Of a stretch of DNA of 64,000 nucleotides, positions 2,503-46,960 are shown in pieces. The notes below the pieces were generated by a model. The model was not told the origin of the DNA, did not search any database, and saw only the letters and a program-made list of their open reading frames with translations. The stretch comes from Deltaproteobacteria bacterium (GTDB lineage Bacteria > UBA10199 > GCA-002796325 > JACPFF01): positions 165,139 to 229,138 of the forward strand of contig JACQUX010000038.1 of assembly GCA_016210045.1 (NCBI GenBank). Direction: 5' to 3'. Within the stretch, counting starts at the first letter, position 1, and every line of letters starts with the position of its first letter. The translations under genes were made by a program, and so were the position numbers.

Positions 2503-2706
2503 AGCGTGCTCGCTCCTTATGCAACTCGTCTCCGGACTGCAAGGCGAATCCCCCGGGACAGGGCACGTATAGATAAGAGACGTCATCCTGAGCCGAAAGG
2601 CGAAGGATCCAGTGGGTTTTGTGGGATTCTGCGCCGCACTCAGAATGACAAATATGCGCGGGACATGACACGAAAAAAATGGAGCACGAATCTGATTTCA
2701 GTGCCG

Positions 2707-4446
2707 CTACGCAGCGGGTTCTTGGGCTGGGGCCGGCTCTGTCGGGGCCTCGGCCTCAGCTGCTGCCTTGGCCGCCGCAGCGGCTGCGGCGATGCTGTCG
2801 TAGTCGCGGAGCGCGGCGCCCACTAATGTCGGATTTTCTGATTCCAGCGCGACCAACGCCGCGCGATAGCGCCCTTCCGCGTGCCACGGTGTGCGGAGGA
2901 CAGCGATGCTGCTGAGTCCCAACAACATCTGCTGTGCGTTGGCGAAGGCCGTCGGCTGTGTTGCGGCCAACTCGCGCTGCGCGGTCAGCAACGGCACGAC
3001 GACGGCGTCGAAAAATGCGGACAAGCGGTCGGGGCGTGTCTCGATCTCGGCGATCTCTTCCTCGATGGCCGCGCGCTGTTCGGCAACGGCGAGCACGAGT
3101 GTATCGGGATCCCGAGCGACGAAGAGGCCAACGAGGCGAAGAAACGCGGCTCTCTCTGTTTCACCCATTGTGTTCAGTGCGGCGAGTGCCGCTTGGCGGT
3201 CCAATACGAGAGTGCGTTGTGCGCGAAGGATTTCCAATTGTGCGGTGTCGCGGGCCTGCTCTTCGCCCAAGTGTAGCAAATATACGCCGCTGCTGGCCCC
3301 TCCACGGGCGTAAAAGGTTACATCCGCATTGCCGAGCTCAGCGTAGCGCAACCATGCCGGGAGTGGTGTTTCGAGATACGGCGCATCTATGTTGAGTCGC
3401 ACGCAGCTCGCGGCATCAGCGCTGGTCTTGACGTGGGCGATGACGTGCTCCAGTCGTGCATTGCACAGCGCCTTCACGCGCGCCAAGGCCGCTTGTACCG
3501 CGGCGAGATACGATTCGCGATCCGCCTCGAGCACGCGCTGCGCCTCGGGCGTCAAGAATCGCAGTTTTCCTGCAATAATTTGGTAGGCCTCGCGGAGCCT
3601 TCCCAAGATTGCGACGTCCACGTCCGGGTCCGTCGATGCCGCGTCACCCAACTGGTCAAGCCGCTCCAGGCCTTGCAGGCCGCGTGCAAAGAAGTGGAGC
3701 GCAATCTCCTGCGGCCTTTTTTCATTGGCCGCGCCGTGTGCGTAACATGTTGCCGCGACAAAAGCGTCGCCAAGGAATTTCACTGCGGACGTTGGTTCCT
3801 CCAACAAAACCGCCAGCCGGGCGCCGAGCTCCATCACGTCGATCACTGCCGGTCCTTTGGATTTTTTATCATCCTGCACGAACCACATGGCGCTGCGAAC
3901 CGCGTCGGTATCTGCGTCGCTTAGTGGCAAGCCGGCGTTCTCCAAGCGATCCGCCAGACGCTGTGCGTTGGCGAGCGTGGCATTCACCGCGCTGCCGCGA
4001 TGCCTTGCCCGATAATGTTCGGCGACCACGGCCGGAACCTCAGCCGCCGTGGCATACTGTCCCGGCGAGAGACGTCGTGCGATGGCTTGCTGCCATCCGG
4101 GGAGTGCCGCGAAGGTCTCGCGCGGCATCCAGACCAAGCGGCGATAGAGTTGGACCGCCTTGAGTGCGCCCAACGAAGCTCCGAGACTGAGCACCGCCAG
4201 TGTAATGCCTCCGACCGTCGCGGTTGTGGCCACGACGTCGGTCGGTTCTCCGTTGCCTCCTTCCCCGAGCTTCGTCGAGAAGACGCCGAGCGGTCCCATC
4301 GGCAATGCGGCCATGCCGAATGTGGCCCGTTCCAATCCCTCTTTGACTCGCGCTCCAAGCGTGCGGCGTTGCGCCAGCGCTATTGCCTCGCCCGTGGGAT
4401 GTGAAATCGCTGTGGTCGTCCGACGCCTCAGTTGCACACGCTGCAT
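2707..4446 (-). CDS. Hypothetical single-pass membrane protein with a large Ala/Leu/Arg-rich helical domain
   Basis: 579 aa ORF with one hydrophobic segment (VGGITLAVLSLGASLGAL) near the N-terminus. A GAGGAG Shine-Dalgarno lies 5 nt upstream of the ATG, which sits 17 nt after the TAA stop of the Hint-domain gene. I recognise no family. Confidence 0.55.
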   Translation of the reverse strand: MQRVQLRRRTTTAISHPTGEAIALAQRRTLGARVKEGLERATFGMAALPMGPLGVFSTKLGEGGNGEPTDVVATTATVGGITLAVLSLGASLGALKAVQLYRRLVWMPRETFAALPGWQQAIARRLSPGQYATAAEVPAVVAEHYRARHRGSAVNATLANAQRLADRLENAGLPLSDADTDAVRSAMWFVQDDKKSKGPAVIDVMELGARLAVLLEEPTSAVKFLGDAFVAATCYAHGAANEKRPQEIALHFFARGLQGLERLDQLGDAASTDPDVDVAILGRLREAYQIIAGKLRFLTPEAQRVLEADRESYLAAVQAALARVKALCNARLEHVIAHVKTSADAASCVRLNIDAPYLETPLPAWLRYAELGNADVTFYARGGASSGVYLLHLGEEQARDTAQLEILRAQRTLVLDRQAALAALNTMGETERAAFLRLVGLFVARDPDTLVLAVAEQRAAIEEEIAEIETRPDRLSAFFDAVVVPLLTAQRELAATQPTAFANAQQMLLGLSSIAVLRTPWHAEGRYRAALVALESENPTLVGAALRDYDSIAAAAAAAKAAAEAEAPTEPAPAQEPAA

Positions 4447-4462
4447 AGTGACTCCTCGATCA

Positions 4463-5935
4463 TTACAATTTCATGTTATGGGCCACGAACCAATGTTGCC
4501 CGCCGTCGGATGACACCAAATAGTTATGGATCGCTCCAGTCCCGAAGCCGAGATTGAAGAGTGCGAACGTCCCTTCCATGCTCATCGAGCCCGCCATCGA
4601 CAGCGCATAGGCCGATCCGTCCGGATTGATGAGCGTATCGCCTTCCTGCAATGCGCCCGCGTGGATCCAGCGTTCCGTGCCGTGGCGTTGTACGCGCAAT
4701 CGATGGATCGACGTCGTCTCGAGCGTGCCGAGTGCGCCGTTCGCGTCGGTCACGGCGAGCGAGAGCAGATCGGACGGAACGACGCCGTGCTGCATCAGTT
4801 GGCGCGGCGTCTGATACACGACGGCGCGCGTGTCCGGATCGAATCCCGCTACGGCCGGCAGTGGCTGTCCCGCAGCCTCCAACGCGGCGAGTGCGGCAAA
4901 CGAAATCGTGCCGCCGTCCGCCGTGCGCAGCACCGCGCGTTCGGTGAAACAGCCGCCGTAGCCCTTGTTGCAACTCCCGACGTCGAAGCTGACTTCCGTG
5001 TCGGGATAGATGCCAAACAGCCACGCGGCGTCGTTGAATTCGACGTCGATCGTGCCTTCACCCTCGCACGCCGCCCAGTCGCCATCGCTCTGCTGTGTGC
5101 GGCATTCAATGGTCTCGACAGACGCGAGGATCTCTGCCGTCTCAGTCCACTGGGTCGCAGCCGCAGCGGCCAGCGGCCGTAGGGCCTCCGGTACACCGAG
5201 CGCGAAGTACGTCATTTGTTTGATCTCGTCGCACCCCTGGCCCAACACCAAATCGCCCGGATCGCGCAATCCGCCTAAGCGCACATAAATGGACAGCCCG
5301 CGCGCGGAGAGATCGGCCAAATAGTCTTTCGTGATGGCCGGGGCCTGCGCGTACGGATGGCTCGCGGGATAATAACCGCGCGGATCGATCCCGCTGCGCA
5401 CCGAATGATCGAATGTGGCTTGGTCGACTTGCAGGACGTCTGCATCGCCGTCGCCCGGAACGCTGTTGAGGACCCACTTTCTTGCATACTCGCTGACCCG
5501 TGCGACCTCCAGAGACCAATCGAGCAACTCGGTGACCGCGCGCTGTTGCCCGATTGTGATGGGTCCGCCAGTGAGCGGTACAGCCGCGTAGCCGATCAGT
5601 CCGCGCAGATGGGCGCGATCGAATCGTTGCGGTGTCTCGGACGGCGTGGGAAGCAGGAAGTCGTCTTCACTGAGCATGCTGAACGGCGACACACGATCGA
5701 AGCGTTTGAGGATCGCGACGGCCTCGGGCGAGCAAAATATCGCGCTGGCGCTGCGTGAGATGGAGGTGAACGCGTCGACCGCCTCGCCACTGCCGGTCAT
5801 ATCCCAAATGGGATGTACTGCAGCACGGATGCACGGTGTCGGCGCCGCGGCCGTCGCCGCATTTGCCGTCGTTCCTTCCACTTCATATCCCGTCACCAGT
5901 TGCGCCAACGCTGTCCCGAGTCCAATTCCAACCAT
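4463..5935 (-). CDS. Protein with C-terminal Hint (Hedgehog/intein-like, bacterial intein-like BIL) domain; N-terminal region of unknown function
   Basis: The C-terminal ~160 aa run CFTERAVLRTADGGTISFAALAALEAAG...TSIHRLRV...WIHAGALQEGDTLINPDGS...FVAHN, then MKL and stop. That gives the Cys1 block A, the TxxH block B and the terminal HN of Hint/intein domains. I placed the start at ATG 5935 because a GGAGG Shine-Dalgarno lies 5 nt upstream. The ORF-track GTG start at 5983 would lie inside the conserved promoter-like motif. Confidence 0.6.
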   Translation of the reverse strand: MVGIGLGTALAQLVTGYEVEGTTANAATAAAPTPCIRAAVHPIWDMTGSGEAVDAFTSISRSASAIFCSPEAVAILKRFDRVSPFSMLSEDDFLLPTPSETPQRFDRAHLRGLIGYAAVPLTGGPITIGQQRAVTELLDWSLEVARVSEYARKWVLNSVPGDGDADVLQVDQATFDHSVRSGIDPRGYYPASHPYAQAPAITKDYLADLSARGLSIYVRLGGLRDPGDLVLGQGCDEIKQMTYFALGVPEALRPLAAAAATQWTETAEILASVETIECRTQQSDGDWAACEGEGTIDVEFNDAAWLFGIYPDTEVSFDVGSCNKGYGGCFTERAVLRTADGGTISFAALAALEAAGQPLPAVAGFDPDTRAVVYQTPRQLMQHGVVPSDLLSLAVTDANGALGTLETTSIHRLRVQRHGTERWIHAGALQEGDTLINPDGSAYALSMAGSMSMEGTFALFNLGFGTGAIHNYLVSSDGGQHWFVAHNMKL

Positions 5936-5968
5936 AAGTGCCTCCGCATGGGTTCCGTACTGTTCGCT

Positions 5969-5997
5969 GTATATCGGCGTCACGAAAAAAGAGTTGC
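5969..5997 (-). promoter_or_regulatory. ECF-sigma-type promoter motif, copy A (GCAAC-N16-CGATATAC) upstream of the Hint-domain gene
   Basis: On the coding strand the sequence is AGCAACtcttttttcgtgacgcCGATATACagcg, lying 34-62 nt upstream of ATG 5935. The same architecture is found at 8402-8430 and 14529-14558. Confidence 0.5.
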
Positions 5998-6145
5998 TAA
6001 GAAAATGCCTGGCCGTTTCCGGGAGTCATTAGGGAACTCATGCCTGGCTTGAATACTCCGCAATCGACCCGCAGGGCTAGCGCCACGGGCGCGCTGATGG
6101 GGAGGCTCCAAATCCGCGAACGAGGACACGCGCACGCCGTCGTGC

Positions 6146-8380
6146 TTATGGCATGTTGCCTGCCGGGGGTGGGGGACAGTCTGGCATGTGCGGTTCCGCC
6201 GGGATATCGGCGGCGCAACGGAAGCCGATGAACTTGGAGCGCTGCGCGGGGTGCCACCGGCGGTCGGTGACATCGCGGATATCCGGGACCGTTTGATCGA
6301 CGGCGATCGCGTCGTCACACTCATTCAGCGGATCGGAGTCTGGATTGATATGATACGCATTGCCAACTACGACGGGTAGTCTGTCTCCGTCGAGTTCCGC
6401 GGTCAGTTCATAGACCGGACCGACCAGGTCGTGGATCCCCAACGGATTGGCCGGTGCGGTGGCGACGGACAACGGCCGCTTGGTGCCGATCGCCATTTCG
6501 TCGGCGCGTAGTTCGCCGCTGCGGGTGCCGAACTGGTTGTTCCCGCCGGCGGTCGCCAGATATTGCCATTCGGCTAGTGTGAGGAGCCGTTTGCCGGCGG
6601 AAAAGGCGAAGAAGAGGGCCTCCCAGAGGGTCACTTTGACGACCGGCTGATTGGGAGCGCCATGAGATTGGGGCAGCCGCCGTTGCGTGGCGACGGGGAC
6701 AATTCGCTCCACCTGCATCGCGTACGCATGGAAACGATGCTCGCTGCGATTCTGCCGAATCCACGCCTCCGCGTCGTTTTCGTTGCGGAAGCCGCCGACC
6801 AGCACGGAGTAGCGCCCGTCGATCTGACCGAAGACCGCGAAGGGCCTCGTGGCATAACGGCCGCAATGGGCATCGAAGGCCTCGTTCGTGACCACATGGG
6901 GATCACAGTAGAAGGGCGCGATGGCGACCACATGGAGGCTGCCGTCAACACCGCGGCTCGTGAAGCCCGTCATTCCCGCCACTTTGACCATTCCGATGAA
7001 ATCCCCGGTGCCATATTCCATGACCGTGTTCGGCGCGGCCAGTTGCAGCGGGTTCGGTGAGGGCGCGAAAGGCGTGCGCCGCACACGTGGAGCGGCCTTC
7101 CCAACCGCGCGCTGGGCTGCGGCCTTGGCCTGTCGTTCTTCCTGTGCCCGTGCAGTGCGCAACGTGTCGATTGCGGCCATCACCAACGCGCGCCGTTGCC
7201 GACGGCGGATCTGCCACCAGTGCGCCGATTCCGGCAGTAGATCCAACAGGGCCGCGAGGGCGGGGACCGCGTCGGTGGCGGCCAGAGTCGAGACATGGCG
7301 CACCGCGGCGGCGACTGTGGACCATCGGTTACGCACGGTGCCGGCGTCGAGGCCCCGCAGGAAGGCCACTTGATGTTGGGTCGTGACCTGCTGCTCCGCT
7401 TGGCGGATTAATTGGGCCTGCTCGCCGGCGCTGCGTTGATCGCGGCCGGCCAAACGGCGGAGATTGACGAGGGCAATCTGCTGGCCCTGCGTGAGGAGTC
7501 CAAATACGGTGAAGGGCTCATCGACCACGGTCCGACGAGTGGCTTCATCCAGTCCATAGAGGATCTCGCGGACGGCCAGTTCGCGCTCACGATCGGGCAG
7601 GACCTCCAACAGCGTAATCGAGAGGATGTAGAGCAGTAGATCGCTGGCGGCATTCAACTGGTGGGTGGGGTACTCCACGACGGTGTGGACCAGTCGGGAG
7701 ACCAGCCCGCGCAACAGGTCGCGCACAAATTCATACCGGCCGTCGACGGCGCGGATCACGTCGCCGCAATCGACGGCCAACATCTGACAGAATTGTTGCC
7801 ATGGCAGTTCGTCGCCCGCAAAGCGTTCCGGAAAGTCGCGCGGAAACATCATACGCAGGATGACCTCGCTTCGGTCCTCGGCCGCGGCGAGGTTCACGAC
7901 TCGACGCAAGTGATCGAAGTCCAGCAGGGAGCGCTCGGCAATCCATAACAGGCCATGATGGGGCGCGGCCGCCACCGGGCCCGAGGCCGTGGTCGCTAAA
8001 GCGGTTGACGGGCTGGTGGCATCAGTGACCGGGACTGCAGTCTCATTCGCGACAGCAGGTTCAGCGCTGGTCGGTGTAGGTGGCTGGGTCTCTCCGCTCA
8101 TACTGAAATGCGGCACTGCGGCGAAGCGAGTGCTGGCGGGTTCGGACGGTGACAGCGCGTGTGCAAAGGTTACTGGTCGATCCGGGACATGCGAAAAGGT
8201 GTCGCCGTTGGCACAGCGGAGGAGTGGCGCAGTGGCTGCATCCGGAGCGATCGGGTGGTGAGGCCGATGGGGAGCGGTCGGTGGTTGTGTTCGCGTCCGT
8301 AACGAAGGCCGAGTGGTCGCGCTAGTCCGCCCCCCCCCGTCTCCCCAGCGTCGCATGTGTGTCGTGCGTCTCCAACTCAT
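6146..8380 (-). CDS. Protein with unknown N-terminal region and C-terminal FGE/SUMF1-type (formylglycine-generating enzyme family) domain
   Basis: The C-terminal ~300 aa contain MVKVAGMTGFTSRGVDGSLHVVAIAPFYCDPHVVTNEAFDAHCG, ...VTLWEALFFAFSAGKRLLTLAEWQYLATAG..., ...NPLGIHDLVGPVYELTAE... and ...SKFIGFRCA, the hallmark blocks of FGE-sulfatase domains. The N-terminal ~430 aa are helical with no recognisable family. An RBS (GAGGAGAG) precedes the ATG at 8380. Confidence 0.65.
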   Translation of the reverse strand: MSWRRTTHMRRWGDGGGRTSATTRPSLRTRTQPPTAPHRPHHPIAPDAATAPLLRCANGDTFSHVPDRPVTFAHALSPSEPASTRFAAVPHFSMSGETQPPTPTSAEPAVANETAVPVTDATSPSTALATTASGPVAAAPHHGLLWIAERSLLDFDHLRRVVNLAAAEDRSEVILRMMFPRDFPERFAGDELPWQQFCQMLAVDCGDVIRAVDGRYEFVRDLLRGLVSRLVHTVVEYPTHQLNAASDLLLYILSITLLEVLPDRERELAVREILYGLDEATRRTVVDEPFTVFGLLTQGQQIALVNLRRLAGRDQRSAGEQAQLIRQAEQQVTTQHQVAFLRGLDAGTVRNRWSTVAAAVRHVSTLAATDAVPALAALLDLLPESAHWWQIRRRQRRALVMAAIDTLRTARAQEERQAKAAAQRAVGKAAPRVRRTPFAPSPNPLQLAAPNTVMEYGTGDFIGMVKVAGMTGFTSRGVDGSLHVVAIAPFYCDPHVVTNEAFDAHCGRYATRPFAVFGQIDGRYSVLVGGFRNENDAEAWIRQNRSEHRFHAYAMQVERIVPVATQRRLPQSHGAPNQPVVKVTLWEALFFAFSAGKRLLTLAEWQYLATAGGNNQFGTRSGELRADEMAIGTKRPLSVATAPANPLGIHDLVGPVYELTAELDGDRLPVVVGNAYHINPDSDPLNECDDAIAVDQTVPDIRDVTDRRWHPAQRSKFIGFRCAADIPAEPHMPDCPPPPAGNMP

Positions 8381-8401: not shown

Positions 8402-8430
8402 CGTGTATATCGGCCCTGCGAAAAAAAAGT
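8402..8430 (-). promoter_or_regulatory. ECF-sigma-type promoter motif, copy B (GCAAC-N16-CGATATAC) upstream of the FGE-domain gene
   Basis: On the coding strand the sequence is CCAGCAACttttttttcgcagggcCGATATACacgg, then ~20 nt containing GAGGAG, then ATG 8380. Confidence 0.5.
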
Positions 8431-8465
8431 TGCTGGATCAATGTGGGTAACTGGGAAACGTGCGT

Positions 8466-11341: not shown

Positions 11342-12532
11342 TTACTCCAGATATTGGAAAAGTTCGGCCCATGGAATGGCCAAAATTTGTCCGATGCGTT
11401 GTGCTCGCGCCACTTGGCACACAAGATACGCAGCGTGCGGCCGGTACTCTTTGCAAAAATGCGCCAGGCCTTTTGTGTCCGCGAGTGTGGGCCGTGCAGT
11501 TGCTTTGACTTCGATAGCAATGCGCTGTTGACCGGTCTCCAACACCATATCGACTTCATCCCCCTGCTTATGCCGCCAATAAAAGAGTTGCGTTCGGGGG
11601 GAGCGCCGCGCCATCAATTCCAGGACCATCAAATGCTCGAACAACACGCCTTGTTGGAGGGGGAGGAGTCCGGGACCATGCCCGATCTGCGCTGCGGCGT
11701 TGCGGACCCCGAGGTCGAAGAAGTAATACTTCGCCGTGCGGAACACGGCATCGCGCACTTGGCCGAAGGCGGGTAGGCGTTGGATAATCAGCGAATCTTC
11801 AAGGATTTGAAAATACTCCCGGATCGTGGTGTGGCTCAGTCCGATGCGCCCGCCGATCTTCGAGAAATTGGGCGCCCCACCCGATTCTAGGGCAGCCAAA
11901 CGAAGAAATTGCGTAAAGCGCGGCACATTGCGAACCGCTGCCTCGGCGCGAATCTCTTCCTCCAAATAGAGGTGTGTATAGGCATTGAGATTGCCTTCGC
12001 GCTGCGTGAAGTCCGTTTGTGAAAGAATTCCGGGCAACATGCCATAGCGCAAGATTTCTCCCAGCCGAGAGAGGGGGAACCCAGTTTCTTGCCATGTCAA
12101 CGGAGGCAGGAAGTGGAGTTGCACTCGGCCGGGGAGCCAGTTCGTGCGCAAACGTTTCATCTTCCGAGCCGACGAGCCAGTGGCGGCGAGAACGATGCGG
12201 CGATGATCCAGGAGAAATTGTAGCGGATCCATGACGGCAGGGATTTTCTGGATCTCGTCGATGTAGAGGAAGAGCGGCGTGCGGGAACGTTTCGCTTCGA
12301 CCTCGCGCACGATGCACTCGGGGTCCTGTTCGATCGCTTCGCGTTGGGAGGGAAGTTGGAAATAATAGGTGAGACACTGCGCGGCGGGAAGCTGCGCGAA
12401 CAGGGCCTCCAACAGCGTGGATTTTCCCGTCTGACGGGGGCCGAAGAGGAGAAACGACTGGCGGCGATCGAGTAGTTGCTGCAAGCGCGAGACGGCAGAT
12501 CGAGGGAAAGTAGATGTTTCAAAATTGTTCAT
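11342..12532 (-). CDS. AAA+ ATPase with DUF4143-type C-terminal domain
   Basis: Walker A (LLFGPRQTGKSTLL) and Walker B (LFLYIDEIQ) motifs, with a C-terminal region typical of the widespread ATPase/DUF4143 family. 396 aa. Confidence 0.75.
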   Translation of the reverse strand: MNNFETSTFPRSAVSRLQQLLDRRQSFLLFGPRQTGKSTLLEALFAQLPAAQCLTYYFQLPSQREAIEQDPECIVREVEAKRSRTPLFLYIDEIQKIPAVMDPLQFLLDHRRIVLAATGSSARKMKRLRTNWLPGRVQLHFLPPLTWQETGFPLSRLGEILRYGMLPGILSQTDFTQREGNLNAYTHLYLEEEIRAEAAVRNVPRFTQFLRLAALESGGAPNFSKIGGRIGLSHTTIREYFQILEDSLIIQRLPAFGQVRDAVFRTAKYYFFDLGVRNAAAQIGHGPGLLPLQQGVLFEHLMVLELMARRSPRTQLFYWRHKQGDEVDMVLETGQQRIAIEVKATARPTLADTKGLAHFCKEYRPHAAYLVCQVARAQRIGQILAIPWAELFQYLE

Positions 12533-14528: not shown

Positions 14529-14558
14529 GCAACTTTTTTTCCACAATACCGATACTAC
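14529..14558 (+). promoter_or_regulatory. ECF-sigma-type promoter motif, copy C (GCAAC-N16-CGATACTAC) upstream of the HATPase-domain gene
   Basis: The sequence is GCAACtttttttccacaatacCGATACTAC, about 50 nt upstream of ATG 14609. It has the same spacing (N16) and the same flanking AGCAAC/T-run as copies A and B. Confidence 0.45.
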
Positions 14559-14608: not shown

Positions 14609-16012
14609 ATGCGACGGATTGCGAAGGCCCGACCCCCCGTAATATGCACCCAGCGTGTGCGAAGCATCGCACGCCGGACCGGAATCAACGTTCGTCTTCC
14701 CCTGCCACAACCCCATGGGGGACAACCCCTCCACCCCGTCTTGTCGATCGGCGTCCATCGGGGCGGATATCGTCTGGTGCAAGTCGGCTTTGGCGGCGCG
14801 GCCGTGCCCGTACTCCCGTGGCAATACGAGACCTTGGCCATGCGGTTGGCGCGGCATTTTCATCATAATGATGTCGCGCCCGATCCCTGTGCGTTGGAAT
14901 TGGCGGCGACGGGTTTTGGAGATATGCCAGCGACTGAAAGTGTCTCGGTCGCGGCAGCGTGGGTGTTGAGCGGATCTGGAATGTTTGTTCGTGGTGGTGT
15001 CCCGCGTGGTCCGCTGCGCGTGGCATTGGCGACGCCAAACGACGCAGAGGCGGGGGGCGCGCAGATCAGTCACGGGCGCGCGTCTGCTGGCGTTGCAACG
15101 GCCGTTGCGAGCGCTCCGCCGAGCGAAGCGGACGGGATCGCGGCGGTCGATGCGGTGAAGCGGCGCTACGAATGTGAATTACGGCCGCGGATTGAAACGC
15201 TGCTGCAGATGACGGCGCAGCTCGTGGATGGGTCGGTGCCGTTGGTCATCCCGTGGCTCCGAGCGGCCATTGAGGCCATTGATCGGTTGAAGGGCGAGTT
15301 ACATGACATTGCGAAGCGTTTTTCTGCGTATCCCACCCCTTCGACGTATGCCCACATCGTGCGGCACAATACGCTTGCGCCGCTCGGCACGTCCCTCATG
15401 ATGTTGCAGCTTAAGATGGAGGTTGAGACCCAGCATCTCCCGTGGGTCGCATGGCTCCTCCCGGCATTCGGCGCCACGCCGCGGTTGTTGAAACACTTGG
15501 CAGATGCGGCGATGGGGCCGGTGCGCGTCGAGGCCGTGCGGCGGGGGATCAAGGAGGAGCCGGTCCGGTTGGAGCACGTGCAATTGGCCGTGACCATTTC
15601 AGACGCGCAGGCCGAGCAACTGTTGGAGGTGTTCCGCAATTTGGCGACCAATGGAATCGTCCACGGATGGGAGGGACGGGCGGATGAATTCGATCTGACT
15701 GCGGCGGAGGCGCAGCGCCGCTTCGTGCGGCTGAGCTTCAAGGAGGGTCAGTTAGTTTACGAAGATAACGGGCAGGGGATTCCCCCGGAAGTGATCGACG
15801 CCGTGGCGTTGGCCGATTGGACGGCGATTGCGCAGCGTTCGCAGACGCGTGGTACTGGCAGCGGTCTTGGCCTGGAACATTTTGTGCGCACCATGGATTT
15901 ACTTGGCTGGTCGTGGAGCTTCGGACCACGATCCGGTGGCGGGACGCGGATCGTCTGTACCCCAAATCCGGAAGATCTCGCCCATCGCCCGGCATATTCC
16001 CCCGGTTCATAA
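14609..16012 (+). CDS. Histidine-kinase-like ATPase (HATPase_c) domain protein with no obvious sensor or H-box; N-terminal region unknown
   Basis: C-terminal motifs match the N box (...NLATNGIVHG...), G1 (EDNGQGIP) and G2 (GTGSGLGLEHF) of GHKL ATPases. There are no transmembrane segments. The start codon is uncertain because no good Shine-Dalgarno precedes it. Confidence 0.6.
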   Translation: MRRIAKARPPVICTQRVRSIARRTGINVRLPLPQPHGGQPLHPVLSIGVHRGGYRLVQVGFGGAAVPVLPWQYETLAMRLARHFHHNDVAPDPCALELAATGFGDMPATESVSVAAAWVLSGSGMFVRGGVPRGPLRVALATPNDAEAGGAQISHGRASAGVATAVASAPPSEADGIAAVDAVKRRYECELRPRIETLLQMTAQLVDGSVPLVIPWLRAAIEAIDRLKGELHDIAKRFSAYPTPSTYAHIVRHNTLAPLGTSLMMLQLKMEVETQHLPWVAWLLPAFGATPRLLKHLADAAMGPVRVEAVRRGIKEEPVRLEHVQLAVTISDAQAEQLLEVFRNLATNGIVHGWEGRADEFDLTAAEAQRRFVRLSFKEGQLVYEDNGQGIPPEVIDAVALADWTAIAQRSQTRGTGSGLGLEHFVRTMDLLGWSWSFGPRSGGGTRIVCTPNPEDLAHRPAYSPGS

Positions 16013-32359: not shown

Positions 32360-33520
32360 TTAGATCTCGGGGAGAAATCCGAGCCGATCGAGCGTTTCGA
32401 CTACGCTGTCGAGTGAAGGCGCTGCAGCTGCGGCGGCTCTTGGGGCCGGGCGTTTTTGGACGATTCGTAGCGGATTGCGAGCGATCGCCGTCATGAGCGC
32501 TGGGCTCCACGGGGCTTGCGTCAGATGGTAACGCCGGAGGGCCGCCTTCGTGAGCGCCATACGGGCTTTGGGTGGATCGAGATGCCAATCGACCAGTAAA
32601 TGTTGCCACGCCGGCGGGACTGCGAGTTTTTGTTCCATCAGTTGCGTCGCATGTTCCACGCCCTTCACGAGGACTTCCACGGTGATCCACGCATCGCTGA
32701 TCCGATCCACCAAGTCCGCACAATAGCCAGCCAGGCCTCCGTAGTCGGCGTCACATTCGGTCGCGACGCGCTGCAAGTCCGCTAGCGGCGGGAAACAGGC
32801 GGCAAAGCGATCGAGCTTGTGTCGCAGCGTCGTCCGGAATCGGATTTCGTCGATGAGATTCGCAAAGGCCAGCGCAGGATCGCGGTCGGCAAGGAGCTCG
32901 ATTTCGAGCGTCACGGGATCGCGGCTGGTCATCCGTGCCAGCCCTAACGCGAAATCTCGTTCTTCGGGTGGCGTCTCGGCGACGTGATAGCGAATGACGA
33001 GAGGCTCCCGAGGATCTGGAGCCATTTGCCGCAGGGCCGAGGCATAGATGCAGCGGCGCGGATCCGAGGTATTCGAGAGTGGCGCGATCAGGTCCAATGG
33101 GCTGAGTTTGCCGGCCAACGCTGCCGTGTTGCGGTGTTGCGTGGCACGGCGTGCGCGTTCCGCGCTACGACTGGGATGCGGTGGTCGTTCCGCGCGCCGA
33201 GGCGCCGCATCTTCTGCCGGGGGCACGCGGCTCTCGAAGAGGCGCCGTGCGAGCAAAACGGTGCCGGGGACGAAGCGCGCGACGCGCGCATGAGCCGTGG
33301 GCGCGCCGGGTGCGCGGAGTGCCACGGGCGCTGCGCGTTGCATCGGCTTTGGTATTAATGGTGTCGGGGCGCCGGGAAATACGTGCAATTTCCCGCCAAT
33401 GGCAGTGCCGGTGCCCGGGCGCAACTTGCCGCCCCCGCCCATGCGGCCCCGAAACGGTCCAAAAGGTCCTCCCCCGGGTCCCCGGGGCGGTCGCGTACCC
33501 ATCATAAGAGGTATCGGCAA
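32360..33520 (-). CDS. Hypothetical protein; the Gly/Pro-rich N-terminus may be a start-codon over-extension
   Basis: Long ORF with coding-like C-terminal two-thirds and no recognisable family. Divergent from the two-component operon. Confidence 0.4.
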   Translation of the reverse strand: MPIPLMMGTRPPRGPGGGPFGPFRGRMGGGGKLRPGTGTAIGGKLHVFPGAPTPLIPKPMQRAAPVALRAPGAPTAHARVARFVPGTVLLARRLFESRVPPAEDAAPRRAERPPHPSRSAERARRATQHRNTAALAGKLSPLDLIAPLSNTSDPRRCIYASALRQMAPDPREPLVIRYHVAETPPEERDFALGLARMTSRDPVTLEIELLADRDPALAFANLIDEIRFRTTLRHKLDRFAACFPPLADLQRVATECDADYGGLAGYCADLVDRISDAWITVEVLVKGVEHATQLMEQKLAVPPAWQHLLVDWHLDPPKARMALTKAALRRYHLTQAPWSPALMTAIARNPLRIVQKRPAPRAAAAAAPSLDSVVETLDRLGFLPEI

Positions 33521-33668
33521 TCTGCCGGAAAAGTTGTGTCAGTCGGCGAACGACAAGTGCACGGCGGACGCGTATCGCAGAACGAACGGCGCCGTGCAAC
33601 GGAAATGATTTGATATCGAATGACTGCGGTCATGGCGTCTCGGCGTCGGCAGGCGTCCGATAGCCGGT

Positions 33669-42331: not shown

Positions 42332-45300
42332 ATGAATGTGTCAATATGTGAAAACCTTCCGATTGCACCCCCGTTGGGGGCGTGGCACAATGGTCGCGTG
42401 ATCGAAAAGAGTCTGAACCTCGGCCATCTGGCCGAGGATTTTGCAAAGTTGTTGGTCGATGTCCCGGGCGAATCCCTGCCCGAAGACACGATTCAATTGG
42501 AGGAAGGAGAGCGACGCGAAGTCACGATCCTTTTCCTCGATATCGTCGGCTATACGCGGCTGGCGGAACAACTCGATCCGGAACAACTCAAGTTCGTCAT
42601 CTCGAACACGTTGCAAGTCTTTACCAATCAGATCAAACGCTGCGGCGGGACGGTCGAGAAATACGTCGGCGACGCGATCATGGCGTTGTTCGGCCGTTCG
42701 GAGGCGCACGAAGACGATTCGCGGCGCGCGGTGGCCGCCGCGCGCGCCATCTTGGAACGGCTCGAAGACATCAACAGCATCCTGGCGCAGAAGGGGATCA
42801 ACATCAGTTGTCGGATCGGCGTGAATCGCGGTTTGATCGTCACCGGACAGATGGGCGAACACGACACCGTGACCGGCGAAGCGATCAATATCGCGCAACG
42901 GTTGGAAGCCAACGCCCCATCGAACGGGATTCTCGTCTCCGACTCTGTTTTTGCGGAATGTCAGGCATATTACGATTGCCAAGCCTTGCCGCCGCTGCAT
43001 GTGAAAAATAAGACCGAGCCGGTGATCGTCTATTTAGTGAGCGACGAAAAGGCCGGCGGCGATCGCGTGATGATCCGGCATGAAGGGACGTTCGCGGGAC
43101 GGGAAGGGGAACGGTCGACGTTGCGGGCGGTGTGGGAGCGGGCCGCGCAAGGGCAAATGGGTTTGGTGCAGGTGGTCGGCGAGGCCGGGGTCGGCAAGAG
43201 CGCGCTGTTGCAAGCGGTGATGCAGGAAATGCGGTCCGAGACGTTGCGCGCGGCGACCGTGTATTTCAAGGCCGATTCGTTCGGATTGACGCCCTACCAT
43301 GTCCTTTCGGACTTGGTGCGGGAATATTTGGCCGGACACGTGACGAGTCTCGAGGACTTTATCGCGGCGATTCCGGACGCGGCGTTGCGCGACGGTCTCG
43401 GCGCGTATCGACTGTATCTCACAGATATTCTCGGATTGCCGCTCGGTGAAGACGATCGGCAGCGCTTATCGCGGATGGATCCGCGGGCGCGCCAAGCGGA
43501 AACCAATTTGGCGTTGAAACGCTTTATCGAAGCCGCCGTGGCGACCGAACGCGTCCGTGGTGCGCTGCCGCTGGTGATCGCGGTCGACAACTTTCAATGG
43601 GTCACGCATGCCTCGCGCGAGGCGCTCAGTCAAATCATCCAGACGTTGCCGTCCGAATCGGCGGTACTCTGGCTGATGGCGGGGCGCAGCGGCGATGCGG
43701 CGCCATGGTTGTCGGCGCAATTGGGGGCAACCGTGTTGCAACTCACGCCGTTGCCGTTCGAGGCCGCAGCGACACTGATTCGGGCGCGTTTCCCGGAACG
43801 CGTGTTAGGCGACGAGTTTTGTCGTCGTCTGTTTTTGCGCAGCGGCGGCAACGCGCTGTTTCTCAACGAACTGGTCGGCGAGTTGCGGCACGACAGCGAT
43901 CTGAGCGATGTCAGTTTCGCTGAGCGGCTGCCGTCGTCGATCAAGGCGTTAGTGTTGTCGCGTCTGGATCGACTGCCGCGTCCGGAAAAATTCGCGCTGC
44001 AACTCGGCGCGTTGGCGGGGCGGGAATTTTCCGAAGACCTGTTGCGCCATGTGCTGCGGCGCGCGATGTACGATTACGACGCCACGCAACTGATCGAACG
44101 GCTCTGTGCCGCGAATTTCCTGGCCCGCAGCGATCACGGCGTCACGATCGCGCAGCCGATGCTGACCGAAGTCGCGTACTCCACGATTTTGTACGCCAAT
44201 CGCCGCAAACTCCACGCGACCGTCGCGCAGTGGGTGGAAGACAATCGTCCCGACATCTCGATTTACGCCGCGTATTTGGCCGAACAGTGGGAGCGGGCCG
44301 AGGAATATGCGAAGGCGTATCATTACTATGCCGACGCCGGGCATTCCGCGCGGCGCCGCTATGCGCAACGCGAAGCGGCGACATTCCTTGAAAAGGCCCT
44401 CAAGTTCCGATCGGCGGCGAATGCGACTCCGGACCAATTGGCGGAGGTGTACGGACATTTGGTCGGCGCGTTCGAGGCGTTGGGCGATCAGGAAAAATGG
44501 CAATTGTATTTAAAAGAAGGGTTGCAATATGCTCCGCCCGAAAGCCGGATGCATTTTCGCTTTCGCTTGTCCGCGATCGAAGTGGAGCAGCGCTATGGCG
44601 ACCGCGCGAAGGCAAAAGAGCGATTGGCTGTGTTTCTTGCCGATGCCGCCGTGCAGGCCAATGCGGAAGTCCATTTGCGGGCGTTGCTGACGGCCAGTAA
44701 TTTTGCGAACGATCAAGGCGCCGACGACACCGCCTTCATCGGCACGGCATTGGCGTTGCGTCCCAAAATTCAAGACGTGGATCTCCAAGAGAAACTCGAT
44801 CATTGCGTGTTTAATCATTACAAAAACGCGGACGAGCTGACGCAAGCGGAACAATATCTCATGCGGCTGCTGGATGCGGCGCAGACGGATTTTCGGCGTC
44901 ATTTGTGCGATCTTTTTTATTGTTCGTTCGCGTGGGATCGTGGCGTTGATTTCGCGGCGATCATGACGCGGGCGTTGGCGGCGCAGAACTATTGGCGAGA
45001 AGTCGGCTGGGTGCGGGGCGTCGGCTGGGGCGCGTTTTATCGAGGCGCGGCGTTATGGCGGATGAGCCGTTACACGGAGGCGCGGCAGGTCTTCATTGAA
45101 GGCGTCAAGGAATTAGAACGCGCGCGGGACCAATTCATGTTGGGTAAATTGGAACTCGTGTTGGCGGCGATCCATCTATTCAGCGGCGATCAAGTGAATT
45201 ACCAAGTGCGGAAGAATCGGATTCTCACGCACGCGCAGCAGACGTCGGAATCGGAATGGCTCGCGCTGCGGCGCGAATTTGCGATGTTCGAAGGCCAATG

Positions 45301-45757
45301 CCTCGAGCCGCGCCATGCGCTGACGGGCGTGTATGAAGAACTCGTCGCGACCGGGTCGGCGCCGTTAGCGAAGGTGCAGATCGACGAATATACCGTCACA
45401 TTGGCGCTCGTGGCCGTGCAGTTAGGCCACACCGTGGAGGCGGAACAGTTAATCCACAAAGTGGGTCCGCATATTCGCGACAATGAAAAGACGTGGCTGT
45501 GGGGACTGTGCGGCCGGGTCGAGGCGTTGATCGCCGCGGCGCGGGAGGAGTGGGAACCGATGGAACGGTCGTTTGCGGAGAGCGTGCTGCGGTTTCAAAA
45601 ACTCGGCGCGCTGTACGACGCGTATCAGACCTATCGCGGTTGGTGGCGGGCGTTGAAGCAGCGAGGATTGGGAGAAACGCCGACCGGGGCAACGGTCCAG
45701 CAAGCGCTGGCGCAGCTGGCGGTTTCGGTGGGTGTGCCGGGGGAGGGACGGGGATGA
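42332..45757 (+). CDS. Adenylate/guanylate cyclase (class III) fused to STAND-type AAA ATPase and TPR/helical repeats
   Basis: Cyclase domain motifs (VTILFLDIVGYTRL..., ...KYVGDAIMALFG...). Walker A (VVGEAGVGKSALL). A long C-terminal helical repeat region. 1141 aa. Confidence 0.85.
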   Translation: MNVSICENLPIAPPLGAWHNGRVIEKSLNLGHLAEDFAKLLVDVPGESLPEDTIQLEEGERREVTILFLDIVGYTRLAEQLDPEQLKFVISNTLQVFTNQIKRCGGTVEKYVGDAIMALFGRSEAHEDDSRRAVAAARAILERLEDINSILAQKGINISCRIGVNRGLIVTGQMGEHDTVTGEAINIAQRLEANAPSNGILVSDSVFAECQAYYDCQALPPLHVKNKTEPVIVYLVSDEKAGGDRVMIRHEGTFAGREGERSTLRAVWERAAQGQMGLVQVVGEAGVGKSALLQAVMQEMRSETLRAATVYFKADSFGLTPYHVLSDLVREYLAGHVTSLEDFIAAIPDAALRDGLGAYRLYLTDILGLPLGEDDRQRLSRMDPRARQAETNLALKRFIEAAVATERVRGALPLVIAVDNFQWVTHASREALSQIIQTLPSESAVLWLMAGRSGDAAPWLSAQLGATVLQLTPLPFEAAATLIRARFPERVLGDEFCRRLFLRSGGNALFLNELVGELRHDSDLSDVSFAERLPSSIKALVLSRLDRLPRPEKFALQLGALAGREFSEDLLRHVLRRAMYDYDATQLIERLCAANFLARSDHGVTIAQPMLTEVAYSTILYANRRKLHATVAQWVEDNRPDISIYAAYLAEQWERAEEYAKAYHYYADAGHSARRRYAQREAATFLEKALKFRSAANATPDQLAEVYGHLVGAFEALGDQEKWQLYLKEGLQYAPPESRMHFRFRLSAIEVEQRYGDRAKAKERLAVFLADAAVQANAEVHLRALLTASNFANDQGADDTAFIGTALALRPKIQDVDLQEKLDHCVFNHYKNADELTQAEQYLMRLLDAAQTDFRRHLCDLFYCSFAWDRGVDFAAIMTRALAAQNYWREVGWVRGVGWGAFYRGAALWRMSRYTEARQVFIEGVKELERARDQFMLGKLELVLAAIHLFSGDQVNYQVRKNRILTHAQQTSESEWLALRREFAMFEGQCLEPRHALTGVYEELVATGSAPLAKVQIDEYTVTLALVAVQLGHTVEAEQLIHKVGPHIRDNEKTWLWGLCGRVEALIAAAREEWEPMERSFAESVLRFQKLGALYDAYQTYRGWWRALKQRGLGETPTGATVQQALAQLAVSVGVPGEGRG

Positions 45758-46850: not shown

Positions 46851-46960
46851 TGGCTGGTAAGCGGCGCGCATAGCACACGTTGTTCCCAGCCACCAGTCAC
46901 GAGTCACCAGCCACCGCTTTTCCCAGTCACCAGTCACTAGCCACCAGTCACGCATCTAAA
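46851..46960. repeat. CCAGYCA heptamer tandem array (locus 3 of 4)
   Basis: The array cccagccaccagtcacgagtcaccagccaccgcttttcccagtcaccagtcactagccaccagtcacg lies between convergent genes, preceded by an inverted block gtggctggt. Confidence 0.6.

What the first reader, a model, noticed from the sequence alone, without database searches (positions are those of the whole stretch)
2707..8380. Three consecutive minus-strand genes of unknown function: FGE-domain fusion, Hint-domain protein, membrane protein
None of the three large ORFs has an assignable function: 744 aa, ~490 aa and 579 aa. The first fuses a helical ~430 aa N-terminal region to an FGE/SUMF1-type domain. That fold in bacteria also serves non-sulfatase roles, as in EgtB, PvdO and kinase-associated FGE domains. 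The first two genes carry copies of the same promoter motif, and the last two are translationally coupled. The block therefore looks like a functional unit rather than a random collection of hypotheticals.
Basis: inference. Interest (0 to 1): 0.55.

Follow-up and report, generated by a model that had tools for sequence, protein, structure and literature searches.

The report
Self-cleaving Hint protein with partner gene
The middle gene encodes a rare bacterial protein with a hedgehog/intein-type self-cutting module at its very end. It travels with a fast-evolving partner gene behind a conserved flagellar-sigma-like promoter, while the neighbouring "FGE" gene is an inactive look-alike that only shares that promoter type.

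Summary
All three minus-strand ORFs exist as described: 744, 490 and 579 aa, NCBI MBI4238980, MBI4238979 and MBI4238978.

**Not one unit.** Only g2 (Hint) and g3 form a conserved pair. They are adjacent, 8-16 nt apart, in three genomes that share no other neighbouring genes. g1 is an orphan and is absent from the other two loci.

**g2.** An AlphaFold model (pLDDT 81) matches inteins, a bacterial intein-like domain and hedgehog HhC over aa 329-490. The catalytic set is complete: GG|Cys329-Phe, T408-x-x-H411 and His486-Asn487. Three residues follow, then the stop codon. About 70 rare relatives keep this terminal Hint but carry different N-terminal cargos, including vWA, PKD and the novel g2-type domain.

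**g1.** The FGE-like domain lacks both copper-binding cysteines of true FGEs. No sulfatase signature occurs in the window.

**Promoter.** The shared motif is GCAACTTT-N11-GCCGATA. It resembles sigma-28 (TAAAGTTT-N11-GCCGATAA). It precedes 8 of 13 family loci, about 25 other, mostly uncharacterised, genes in related metagenome contigs, and two further genes in this window. It therefore marks a broad regulon, not a g1-g2 link.

**Best reading.** g2 is a Hog-like autoprocessing protein with a membrane-anchored partner. It is a new variant of a known kind.

The parts
8408..8433 (-). Sigma-28-like promoter of g1: GCAACTTT-N11-GCCGATA, 0 mismatches. An AGGAG Shine-Dalgarno and the ATG follow 27 nt after the motif.
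   Evidence: Consensus TAAAGTTT-n11-GCCGATAA from PMC2859248.
6146..8380 (-). g1, 744 aa (MBI4238980.1). It has a low-complexity Ala/Thr/Pro-rich N-terminus (~aa 1-150), an orphan middle region and a C-terminal FGE-like domain.
6212..6952 (-). FGE-sulfatase-like domain of g1 (aa 477-723). It lacks the Cys336/Cys341 copper-binding pair of true formylglycine-generating enzymes.
   Evidence: Pfam 69 bits. Alignment with a human FGE fragment that was verified 171/171 against PDB 1y1e.
5972..5997 (-). Sigma-28-like promoter of the g2-g3 operon: GCAACTCT-N11-GCCGATA, 1 mismatch. It is conserved upstream of the g2 homologues in L001 and L002.
4463..5935 (-). g2, 490 aa (MBI4238979.1, HY696_11290): a cargo-Hint autoprocessing protein.
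4970..5752 (-). Novel alpha/beta N-terminal 'cargo' domain of g2 (aa ~62-322). Y243, C278 and C290 are invariant. The loop that is EF-hand-like in relatives is degenerate here. No Pfam, PDB or BFVD match was found.
   Evidence: Alignment A3. Model pLDDT is mostly 75-95. No non-Hint hits.
4466..4951 (-). Terminal Hint domain of g2 (aa 329-490). The predicted scissile bond is Gly328|Cys329, with the Cys codon at 4949-4951. The motifs are T408-x-x-H411 and His486-Asn487, followed by Met-Lys-Leu and the stop codon.
   Evidence: Foldseek hits to inteins, BIL and hedgehog HhC with TMt up to 0.82. Family-wide conservation: CF 50/50, T 59/59, H 59/59, H 59/59, N 56/59.
2707..4446 (-). g3, 579 aa (MBI4238978.1, HY696_11285): an Ala/Leu-rich partner protein, probably alpha-helical by composition. 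It starts 16 nt after the g2 stop, with a GAGGAG Shine-Dalgarno between them.
4156..4236 (-). The single moderately hydrophobic segment of g3 (aa 71-97), a putative membrane anchor, followed by the conserved K-A-V..R.L.W.P.E.
   Evidence: Kyte-Doolittle scan of the three orthologues. Alignment A6.
14529..14554 (+). A further sigma-28-like site (1 mismatch), upstream of the HATPase_c histidine-kinase gene at 14609-16012. It shows that the promoter type is not specific to g1 and g2.
33512..33537 (-). A further sigma-28-like site (1 mismatch). An ATG lies 7 nt downstream, within the no-Pfam ORF 32360-33520.

Best explanation
The block holds two transcription units, not one.

**Unit 1: the g2-g3 operon**
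- g2 is a cargo-Hint protein. It has a novel ~260-aa N-terminal domain fused directly to a terminal Hint (hedgehog/intein) module.
- As in Hedgehog and bacterial intein-like domains, Cys329 would attack the Gly328 carbonyl (an N-to-S acyl shift assisted by T408/H411). The resulting thioester would be resolved by water or another nucleophile. This would release a ~33-kDa N-terminal fragment from the ~17-kDa Hint module (inferred from complete, strongly conserved catalytic motifs and fold; not shown experimentally).
- No C-extein exists, so splicing is impossible. The architecture is Hog-like: variable cargo, constant terminal processing domain.
- Cargos elsewhere in the family are vWA and PKD domains, and two members have lipobox-like N-termini. 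These points suggest surface or extracytoplasmic roles (inferred).
- g3 is a single-anchor, mostly helical protein that co-occurs and co-diverges with g2. It is most likely the physical partner of g2 at the membrane, as anchor, receptor or handling factor (inferred from conserved operon structure only).

**Unit 2: g1**
- g1 is an orphan protein ending in an FGE-fold domain that has lost the catalytic cysteines. It would act as a binding module, not as a sulfatase maturase.

**Shared control**
- Both units carry a sigma-28 (FliA/WhiG-family)-like promoter. They are therefore probably switched on together with a large set of lineage-specific genes, by analogy with the FliA-driven attack-phase regulon of Bdellovibrio.
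For: **Hint fold and residues**
- The AF2 model built on a 15-sequence alignment has pLDDT 81.
- The top 49 PDB hits are inteins, C. thermocellum BIL (2lwy, TMt 0.82), Tetrahymena BIL2 and hedgehog HhC (1at0). All are aligned over ~165 columns.
- Pfam PT-HINT, Hint and Intein_splicing hit several family members.
- The catalytic residues are invariant or nearly so across 59 relatives.

**Terminal position and variable cargo**
- 71 cluster representatives match only profile positions ~320-484, and the match ends at each protein's own C-terminus.
- 59 of 67 end in HN plus a tail of 1-6 residues.
- N-terminal regions include vWA and PKD and lipobox-like starts in P0007 and P0019.

**g2-g3 pair**
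- The two genes are adjacent in the window, in L001 and in L002-L005.
- The g3 orthologues are collinear over their full length despite 45% and 24% identity in alignment A6.
- No flanking gene is shared between the three contexts.

**g1**
- It is found only as itself in the homologue search.
- The catalytic Cys are replaced.
- NCBIfam EgtB and SenA scores are 24 and 23 bits against cutoffs of 360 and 420.
- No sulfatase signature was found.

**Promoter**
- Site counts and shuffle controls.
- The motif is conserved upstream of g2 homologues and of 8 of 13 family loci.
- The metagenome scan gave 40 sites. Positions outside the imposed pattern are also enriched: G and C before CGATA, and an A-rich stretch upstream.
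- Sigma-28 consensus from PMC2859248. Bdellovibrio precedent from PMC3627812.
Against: - No experiment shows cleavage.
- g2 itself has no signal peptide and no hydrophobic segment, so its export is unproven.
- A g3-like partner is present only in the three closest genomes. More distant family members have other neighbours. g3 is therefore not a general requirement of the Hint family.
- The sigma-28 assignment rests on motif similarity alone. The -35 half matches only 5 of 8 positions.
- The membrane anchoring of g3 rests on a borderline hydrophobicity score.
Confidence: 0.6

Rival explanations
1. g2-g3 is an effector-immunity (polymorphic-toxin-like) pair. The variable N-terminal domain would be a toxin or effector released by the Hint domain. 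g3 would be its immunity or neutralising protein.
For: - A conserved processing domain combined with swapped partner domains resembles polymorphic toxin logic.
- The best Pfam match is the pretoxin HINT family.
- g3 diverges faster than g2, at 42% and 22% identity against 60% and 45%.
- In L002 and L058 the genes sit among toxin-antitoxin genes: AbiEii, ParE and HI1420.
Against: - In polymorphic toxins the variable toxin lies C-terminal to the PT-HINT. Here nothing follows the Hint.
- The other cargos are adhesion-type domains (vWA, PKD), not toxins.
- The g2 N-domain has no conserved catalytic-looking residues; only Y243, C278 and C290 are invariant.
- g3 is 579 aa with a membrane anchor, far larger than typical immunity proteins.
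- A g3-like gene is absent next to other family members.
- There are no PADLOC hits.
Confidence: 0.12
2. All three genes form one functional module. The FGE-like domain of g1 would act on or bind g2 or g3, for example by recognising a Cys-containing peptide.
For: - The genes are adjacent on the same strand and share a 38-nt promoter repeat at 82% identity.
- In the groundwater metagenome that holds the g2 homologue P0003, a stand-alone FGE-like gene (L050, 29% identical to the g1 FGE domain) has the same promoter type.
Against: - g1 is not next to the g2-g3 pair in L001 or L002.
- The N-terminal 470 aa of g1 have no relative anywhere.
- The promoter type is shared with many unrelated genes, including two more in this window.
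- The FGE-like domain lacks its catalytic cysteines.
Confidence: 0.1
3. The Hint domain of g2 is a degenerate remnant with no processing activity. g2 would act as an intact two-domain protein, and the g2-g3 adjacency would reflect only shared ancestry of closely related genomes.
For: - No biochemical data exist.
- g2 scores below the Pfam gathering threshold for PT-HINT, 17.5 bits against 27.7.
- Only three genomes carry the pair.
Against: - Every catalytic position is invariant or nearly so across 59 divergent relatives, whose identity to g2 over the Hint domain falls to about 40% in the subset aligned. This argues for selection on the chemistry.
- The three genomes share no flanking genes, and protein identity is only 45-60%. 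Simple recent shared ancestry of the region is therefore unlikely.
Confidence: 0.1

Closest known systems
Hedgehog / Hog proteins (C-terminal Hint autoprocessing domain, e.g. Drosophila HhC, PDB 1at0)
   Same: - The architecture is the same: a cargo domain followed directly by a processing Hint.
- The junction is Gly-Gly|Cys-Phe, as in Hh.
- Many relatives begin CFPG or CFTG.
- The TxxH motif is present.
- The structural match to 1at0 has TMt 0.69.
- The family exchanges N-terminal cargos, as eukaryotic Hog proteins do (PMC2362128).
- A His conserved in 50 of 59 members sits next to the column aligned with the Hh general base D46.
   Different: - There is no sterol-recognition region. The protein ends 3 residues after His-Asn.
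- It has the intein-type block G (HN), which Hog domains lack.
- The D46 column holds Gln in g2 and is variable across the family.
- g2 has no signal peptide.
Bacterial intein-like domains, type A (BIL-A; Pfam PT-HINT PF07591; C. thermocellum BIL, PDB 2lwy)
   Same: - This is the best structural match with meaningful identity: 2lwy at TMt 0.82 and 21% identity.
- The C-terminal His-Asn is conserved and no +1 nucleophile follows. This is the BIL-A hallmark described in PMC7765530.
- PT-HINT is the most frequent Pfam hit in the family.
   Different: - BIL-A domains sit inside hypervariable secreted proteins, upstream of a C-terminal variable or toxin region.
- Here the Hint is strictly terminal and the variable part is N-terminal.
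- g2 scores below the PF07591 gathering threshold.
Bacterial proteins with a C-terminal Hint-like domain and two conserved upstream cysteines (Burglin 2008; Dassa and Pietrokovski; e.g. MXAN_6253, STIAU_1829, plu1731)
   Same: - Both have a Hint-like domain at the C-terminus and a weakly conserved upstream region with two invariant cysteines. In g2 these are C278 and C290.
- In both groups some members carry secretion signals.
- Myxobacterial members were formerly classed as 'deltaproteobacteria' (PMC2362128).
   Different: - That group was described as conserving mainly motifs A and B. No C-terminal HN was reported.
- I could not obtain their sequences, so homology to g2 is untested.
Eukaryotic vWA-Vint proteins
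   Same: Several relatives of g2 (P0013, P0016, P0026, P0027, P0030) combine a vWA domain with the terminal Hint. One member hits Pfam Vint.
   Different: g2 itself has no vWA domain. Vint domains lack the intein-type C-terminal motifs (PMC2362128).
FliA (sigma-28) global regulon of Bdellovibrio attack phase; WhiG and chlamydial sigma-28 non-flagellar regulons
   Same: - The promoter geometry and the -10 element match: CCGATA, with AGCAA-N16-CCGATA here against TTAAG-N16-CCGATA there.
- In both cases the promoter drives many non-flagellar and uncharacterised genes, including a protease (PMC3627812).
   Different: - The -35 half differs: GCAACTTT against TAAAGTTT.
- No sigma gene, flagellar gene or expression data were available for this lineage.
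Formylglycine-generating enzyme (SUMF1) and non-catalytic FGE-fold domains (pFGE/SUMF2, PvdO, kinase-associated)
   Same: g1 aa 477-723 is a bona fide FGE-sulfatase-fold domain ending in the family's IGFRCA motif.
   Different: - Both copper-binding cysteines are replaced.
- There is an insertion before the C-terminal motif.
- The domain is fused to an orphan 470-aa N-terminal region.
- No sulfatase lies nearby.

Membership tests
HINT superfamily (hedgehog/intein fold) | Horseshoe all-beta Hint fold | tested here: met
   AF2 model (pLDDT 81). Foldseek against the PDB gave 46 hits with E<=1e-3, all inteins, BIL or hedgehog, with TMt up to 0.82. BFVD gave the same picture.
HINT superfamily (hedgehog/intein fold) | Block A nucleophile (Cys/Ser at position 1) and block B TxxH | tested here: met
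   Cys329, and T408-S-I-H411 in g2. Across the family: CF 50/50, T 59/59, H 59/59.
Intein (protein-splicing element) | A C-extein beginning with a Cys/Ser/Thr nucleophile, so that the flanks can be ligated | tested here: not met
   The protein ends Met-Lys-Leu-stop after His-Asn. Family tails are 1-6 residues.
Intein (protein-splicing element) | Insertion in a conserved site of a host protein that also exists without the insert | tested here: not met
   The Hint is always terminal and follows unrelated N-terminal domains.
BIL type A / Pfam PT-HINT (PF07591) | Conserved C-terminal His-Asn without a +1 nucleophile | tested here: met
   H486-N487 followed by Met. Across the family H is 59/59 and N is 56/59. 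Definition taken from PMC7765530.
BIL type A / Pfam PT-HINT (PF07591) | Score above the Pfam gathering threshold | tested here: not met
   g2 scores 17.5 bits against 27.7. Relatives reach E 6e-8.
BIL type A / Pfam PT-HINT (PF07591) | Location upstream of a variable C-terminal (toxin) region of a secreted protein | tested here: not met
   Nothing follows the domain.
Hog (hedgehog-type) autoprocessing domain | Cargo-Hint architecture with a Gly|Cys-Phe junction | tested here: met
   The junction is GG|CF in g2. The -2/-1 residues are GG in 11 of 53 family members, and all 53 start CF.
Hog (hedgehog-type) autoprocessing domain | General base equivalent to Hh D46 (D303) | tested here: inconclusive
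   In a MAFFT alignment with 1at0 (sequence verified), the D46 column holds Q in g2 and D in 14 of 59 relatives. The next residue is His in 50 of 59. Identity is only 23%, so the equivalence is uncertain.
Hog (hedgehog-type) autoprocessing domain | Sterol-recognition region (motifs K and L) after the Hint module | tested here: not met
   The protein terminates 3 residues after the Hint.
Formylglycine-generating enzyme (true FGE) | FGE-sulfatase fold or domain | tested here: met
   PF03781, 69 bits, aa 477-723.
Formylglycine-generating enzyme (true FGE) | Catalytic copper-binding cysteine pair (human Cys336 and Cys341) | tested here: not met
   In alignment A5 with the human FGE fragment (verified against 1y1e), both positions are non-Cys in g1 and in L050.
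Formylglycine-generating enzyme (true FGE) | Sulfatase substrate genes in the neighbourhood | tested here: not met
   No match to the two PROSITE sulfatase patterns (recalled from memory) in any frame of the 64-kb window. Neighbouring genes are a peptidase, a thioesterase, AhpC and PolX.
EgtB / SenA sulfoxide synthases | Full-length match including the N-terminal DinB-like iron-binding domain | tested here: not met
   NCBIfam scores are 24 and 23 bits against cutoffs of 360 and 420, covering only ~80 residues of the FGE-like part.
Sigma-28 (FliA/WhiG) dependent promoter | -10 element GCCGATAA and an 11-nt spacer after an 8-nt -35 element | tested here: met
   GCCGATA with an N11 spacer at both sites. 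Consensus from PMC2859248.
Sigma-28 (FliA/WhiG) dependent promoter | -35 element TAAAGTTT | tested here: inconclusive
   GCAACTTT matches 5 of 8 positions. The same variant recurs in ~40 sites.
Sigma-28 (FliA/WhiG) dependent promoter | Recognition by a group-3 sigma factor encoded in the genome | not testable with these tools
   Only 64 kb of the 300-kb contig is held. No FliA-like or flagellin-like sequence was found in the ~479 kb held.
Polymorphic toxin-immunity pair | Variable C-terminal toxin with a small cognate immunity gene immediately downstream | tested here: not met
   The variable part is N-terminal. The downstream gene is 579 aa and is absent from other family loci.

The most novel reading that the evidence does not exclude
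g2 and its ~70 relatives could be a bacterial counterpart of Hedgehog or BUBL-type chemistry. In this reading the terminal Hint does not simply hydrolyse. It would hand the thioester-activated C-terminus of the cargo to a specific non-water nucleophile, such as a membrane lipid, a cell-envelope component or a residue of the co-encoded anchor protein g3. The cargo would then be covalently tethered at the cell surface. The conserved His next to the Hh-D46 column would act as the activating base. The whole set would be deployed by a sigma-28-type regulon in a dispersal or attack phase.
Probability: 0.12. Interest if true: 0.8.

Novelty: new variant of a known kind. Interest (0 to 1): 0.5.

Why it matters
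- Hint domains are known in bacteria mainly as inteins or as pretoxin modules inside polymorphic toxins. This family combines strictly terminal, Hog-like architecture with intein-type catalytic motifs, interchangeable adhesion-type cargos and, in one branch, a dedicated partner gene. That shows a third way bacteria use the fold. It also bears on the origin of Hedgehog-type autoprocessing.
- The family is invisible to current annotation. Its members are all 'hypothetical' and fall below Pfam thresholds.
- The conserved GCAACTTT-N11-GCCGATA promoter gives a handle on a large regulon of uncharacterised genes in uncultivated 'Deltaproteobacteria' MAGs. The regulon recalls the FliA-driven attack-phase programme of Bdellovibrio.
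- For the original finding, the practical outcome is a correction. The unit is two genes, not three, and the FGE domain is a non-catalytic look-alike.

Tried and rejected
**Homologue and family searches**
- The k-mer homologue searches were nearly empty: g1 found only itself, and g2 and g3 each had two relatives. g2's own cluster is represented by a 49-aa fragment, which hid it from that search.
- PADLOC, PHROGs and NCBIfam gave nothing useful for any of the three proteins.
- Cluster look-ups returned no organism names.

**Structure**
- The first AF2 run, on a 3-sequence alignment, was useless at pLDDT 37. The 15-sequence alignment fixed this.
- Profile searches against PDB sequences gave only noise for g2 (a designed repeat protein), for g3 (PDCD10, E 0.2) and for the g1 N-region.

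**Locus retrieval**
- I scanned genome contigs with a hand-made degenerate pattern for DG-xx-WFVAHN instead. It returned 3 true loci out of 6 hits.

**Ideas dropped**
- ECF-sigma promoter. I considered this first because of AAC...CGA. I rejected it in favour of sigma-28, because GCCGATA and the N11 spacing fit exactly, and no ECF-sigma motif was found in the window.
- Phage origin. No relatives were found in IMG/VR by protein or by DNA pattern.
- RNA elements in the region. No Rfam hit reached E<=0.1.
- Sigma-70 promoters and terminators. Neither exceeded the shuffled expectation.
- A shared upstream partner. The genes coupled upstream of P0006 (919 aa) and P0019 (357+ aa) show no similarity to g1, to g3 or to each other.

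Full report
**Observation**

The region 2707-8380 contains three consecutive minus-strand ORFs.
- g1 is 6146-8380, 744 aa.
- g2 is 4463-5935, 490 aa. It starts at an ATG preceded by GGAGG. The mechanical ORF runs to a GTG at 5983, but that start overlaps the promoter.
- g3 is 2707-4446, 579 aa.

NCBI annotates the same three proteins on a 299,721-bp contig of a MAG named 'Deltaproteobacteria bacterium'. They are MBI4238980.1 ('SUMF1/EgtB/PvdO family nonheme iron enzyme'), MBI4238979.1 and MBI4238978.1, the last two both 'hypothetical'. GC content is like the rest of the window. The flanking genes are ordinary: M20 peptidase, 4HBT thioesterase, AhpC/TSA, PolX, endonuclease III and a DUF4143 ATPase.

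**Is the block a unit?**

g2 has two detectable homologues by the k-mer search, P0002 (60% identity) and P0003 (45%). g3 has one, P0005 (42%).

On their contigs, a g3-type gene directly follows each g2 homologue.
- In L001 the gap is 8 nt.
- In L002-L005 the gap is 10 nt, and the 589-aa product is only 22% identical to g3 by BLASTP but collinear over its full length.
- In the window the gap is 16 nt and contains GAGGAG.

None of the window's flanking genes occurs on those contigs. There the pair lies among toxin-antitoxin genes. A two-gene cassette kept together in otherwise unrelated contexts, at 45-60% protein identity, is good evidence for an operon with linked function.

g1 is absent from those loci. 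Its only hit among 5.8 billion proteins is itself. The three-gene unit is therefore not supported. The two-gene unit is.

**g2**

A full HMMER scan of 1.84 billion representatives with the three-sequence profile found 71 proteins. All of them match only the last ~165 profile positions, and in each the match ends at the protein's own C-terminus. A subset shares more of the g2 N-terminal domain: P0006, P0007, P0008, P0012, P0015, P0019, P0023, P0032, P0035, P0038 and P0040.

With a 15-sequence alignment (A3), AlphaFold gave a confident model with pLDDT 81.2. A 3-sequence alignment had failed at pLDDT 37.

Foldseek against the PDB returned only Hint-fold proteins over ~165 aligned columns.
- Inteins.
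- The Clostridium thermocellum bacterial intein-like domain (2lwy, TMt 0.82, 21% identity).
- Tetrahymena BIL2 (6y75).
- The hedgehog autoprocessing domain (1at0, TMt 0.69).

BFVD gave the same picture.

The motifs are complete.
- GG|C329-F.
- T408-x-x-H411.
- A block-F-like LFNLGF.
- H486-N487, then Met-Lys-Leu and the stop codon.

Across 59 relatives the conservation is as follows.
- C-F at the start of the Hint is 50/50.
- The T and H of TxxH are each 59/59.
- The penultimate His is 59/59 and the terminal Asn is 56/59.
- The tail after HN is 1-6 residues.

Such conservation at low overall identity argues for an active module.

No C-extein exists, so splicing is impossible. The only meaningful reaction is cleavage of the cargo at Gly328|Cys329 through a thioester. 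This is the Hedgehog/Hog logic, not the intein or pretoxin logic.

An alignment with Drosophila HhC, whose sequence I verified 145/145 against 1at0, places the family's 'x-His' dipeptide at the Hh general-base position D46. The x is Asp in 14 of 59 relatives and Gln in g2. The His is conserved in 50 of 59. D46 activates cholesterol, and D46H retains activity (PMC9163320). At 23% identity this is a lead only.

**Cargo domains**

The g2 N-domain (aa ~62-322) is predicted with confidence as a mixed alpha/beta domain. It has no Pfam, PDB or BFVD match. Only Y243, C278 and C290 are invariant. Relatives carry an EF-hand-like loop, LDxNxDxxVxxxDF, which is degenerate in g2.

Other family members carry vWA and PKD-like domains. 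P0007 and P0019 have lipobox-like N-termini. These features point to surface or extracytoplasmic roles for the family. g2 itself has no signal peptide or hydrophobic segment.

Burglin (2008) noted bacterial proteins with a C-terminal Hint-like domain and two conserved upstream cysteines, among them MXAN_6253 and plu1731 (PMC2362128). Whether g2 belongs to that group could not be tested.

**g3**

g3 has no hit in Pfam, PADLOC or the PDB, and only sub-threshold hits in NCBIfam and PHROGs. It is 20% Ala and 12% Leu. It has one moderately hydrophobic segment at aa 71-97 (Kyte-Doolittle 1.75), present at the same place in all three orthologues and followed by a conserved basic motif.

More distant family members do not have a g3-like neighbour. 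Their neighbours include MetRS, FtsY, a 142-aa ORF, a Castor/Pollux-like channel and UbiA. g3 is therefore a branch-specific partner. I take it to be a membrane-anchored helical protein that handles, anchors or receives the g2 product. This is inference from gene order only.

**g1**

Pfam FGE-sulfatase covers aa 477-723 at 69 bits. I aligned the domain with a human FGE fragment that I had verified 171/171 against PDB 1y1e. Both copper-binding cysteines, Cys336 and Cys341, are replaced in g1. EgtB and SenA models score 24 and 23 bits against cutoffs of 360 and 420. No sulfatase signature occurs in any frame of the window. The first ~150 residues are Ala/Thr/Pro-rich. The following ~320 residues have no relatives. 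g1 is thus an orphan protein ending in a non-catalytic FGE-fold domain, presumably a binding module.

**The promoter**

It gives 2 exact matches against 0.03 expected and is the top direct repeat of the region. The same sequence precedes the g2 homologues in L001 and L002.

Written as GCAACTTT-N11-GCCGATA, it matches the sigma-28 consensus TAAAGTTT-n11-GCCGATAA in the -10 element, in the spacing and in 5 of 8 positions of the -35 element (PMC2859248).

A metagenome scan with a 37-bit version of the motif found 40 sites.
- Many come from the same groundwater metagenomes as P0003.
- About 25 lie 6-60 nt upstream of an ORF.
- Positions outside the imposed pattern are also enriched: G and C before CGATA, and an A-rich stretch upstream.
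- Of ten downstream products scanned, eight have no Pfam domain. One is a lipoprotein Met-zincin. One (L050) is a stand-alone FGE-like protein 29% identical to the g1 domain.

The window holds two more sites with one mismatch. One precedes a histidine-kinase gene and the other a 386-aa ORF.

Among 13 loci of the Hint family, 8 carry the motif in front of the gene or its operon.

The motif therefore marks a broad regulon in which the Hint family is over-represented. It is not a private g1-g2 link. The precedent is Bdellovibrio, where TTAAG-N16-CCGATA (FliA) drives two-thirds of the mapped attack-phase promoters, including many non-flagellar and uncharacterised genes (PMC3627812).

Caveats apply. 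No sigma gene, flagellin or expression data were available, so the sigma assignment is by similarity only.

**Verdict**

- The best explanation is a sigma-28-like-controlled g2-g3 operon. It would encode a Hog-like self-cleaving cargo-Hint protein and its membrane-anchored partner.
- Next to it lies an independently transcribed orphan gene with a non-catalytic FGE-like domain that belongs to the same broad regulon.
- The fold, the motifs, the gene pairing and the promoter recurrence are shown by computation. Cleavage, localisation, the role of g3 and the identity of the sigma factor are inferred.
- This is a new variant of a known kind of module. It is rare, with about 70 clusters among 1.8 billion representatives, and it is unannotated.

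Noticed in passing
window 14529-14554 (+) and 33512-33537 (-): Two more sigma-28-like sites (GCAACTTT-N11-aCCGATA and aCAACTTT-N11-GCCGATA). The first lies 54 nt upstream of a histidine-kinase gene (14609-16012). The second is followed 7 nt later by an ATG in a no-Pfam ORF, which suggests a leaderless or very short-leader mRNA.
   Followed up: partly
L017-L056 (metagenome loci), e.g. L050:4379 (-), L034:6985 (+), L041:9081 (-): The GCAACTTT-N11-GCCGATA motif recurs on many contigs of the same groundwater metagenomes (Ga0209515, OBEQ01, Ga0210019). It precedes mostly no-Pfam proteins, a lipoprotein Met-zincin and a stand-alone cysteine-less FGE-like protein. This looks like a large lineage-specific regulon.
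   Followed up: partly
L059:~470-535 (upstream of P0032): One relative of g2 carries a sigma-54-like sequence (TGGCAC-N5-TTGCT) upstream instead of the sigma-28-like motif.
   Followed up: no
L012:1360-4154 and L057:1-1074: In two distant relatives (P0006, P0019) the Hint gene overlaps the end of a large upstream no-Pfam gene (919 aa; 357+ aa, truncated). In L012 the sigma-28-like motif sits in front of that upstream gene. The upstream genes resemble neither g1, nor g3, nor each other.
   Followed up: partly
window 11342-12532 (-); L015:6756-7892; L017:3487-4431: AAA_14/DUF4143 ATPase genes lie within a few kb of the Hint gene or of sigma-28-like sites in three unrelated loci. They are 25-34% identical to each other. 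This may be coincidence, because the family is common.
   Followed up: no
window 2640-2706 (-), downstream of g3: A T-rich stretch, CCATTTTTTTCGTG, resembles the -35-proximal part of the promoter motif but lacks the CCGATA -10 element. It may act as a terminator tail for g3 or as an unrelated promoter for the thioesterase gene. The terminator scan did not call it.
   Followed up: partly
window 42332-45757 (+) and 46956-49283 (-): An adenylate/guanylate cyclase fused to a STAND (AAA_16/NACHT-like) NTPase, next to a 775-aa RCC1-repeat protein. Gene content of this sort is typical of bacteria with complex lifestyles.
   Followed up: no
protein collection, cluster of g2: The 90%-identity cluster that contains g2 is represented by a 49-aa fragment. 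The exact protein therefore did not appear in the homologue search, although it is in NCBI.
   Followed up: yes
L008 and L009 (same MAG, JAUSII01): One MAG carries at least two paralogous vWA-Hint genes of this family on different contigs, so the family can be multi-copy within a genome.
   Followed up: partly
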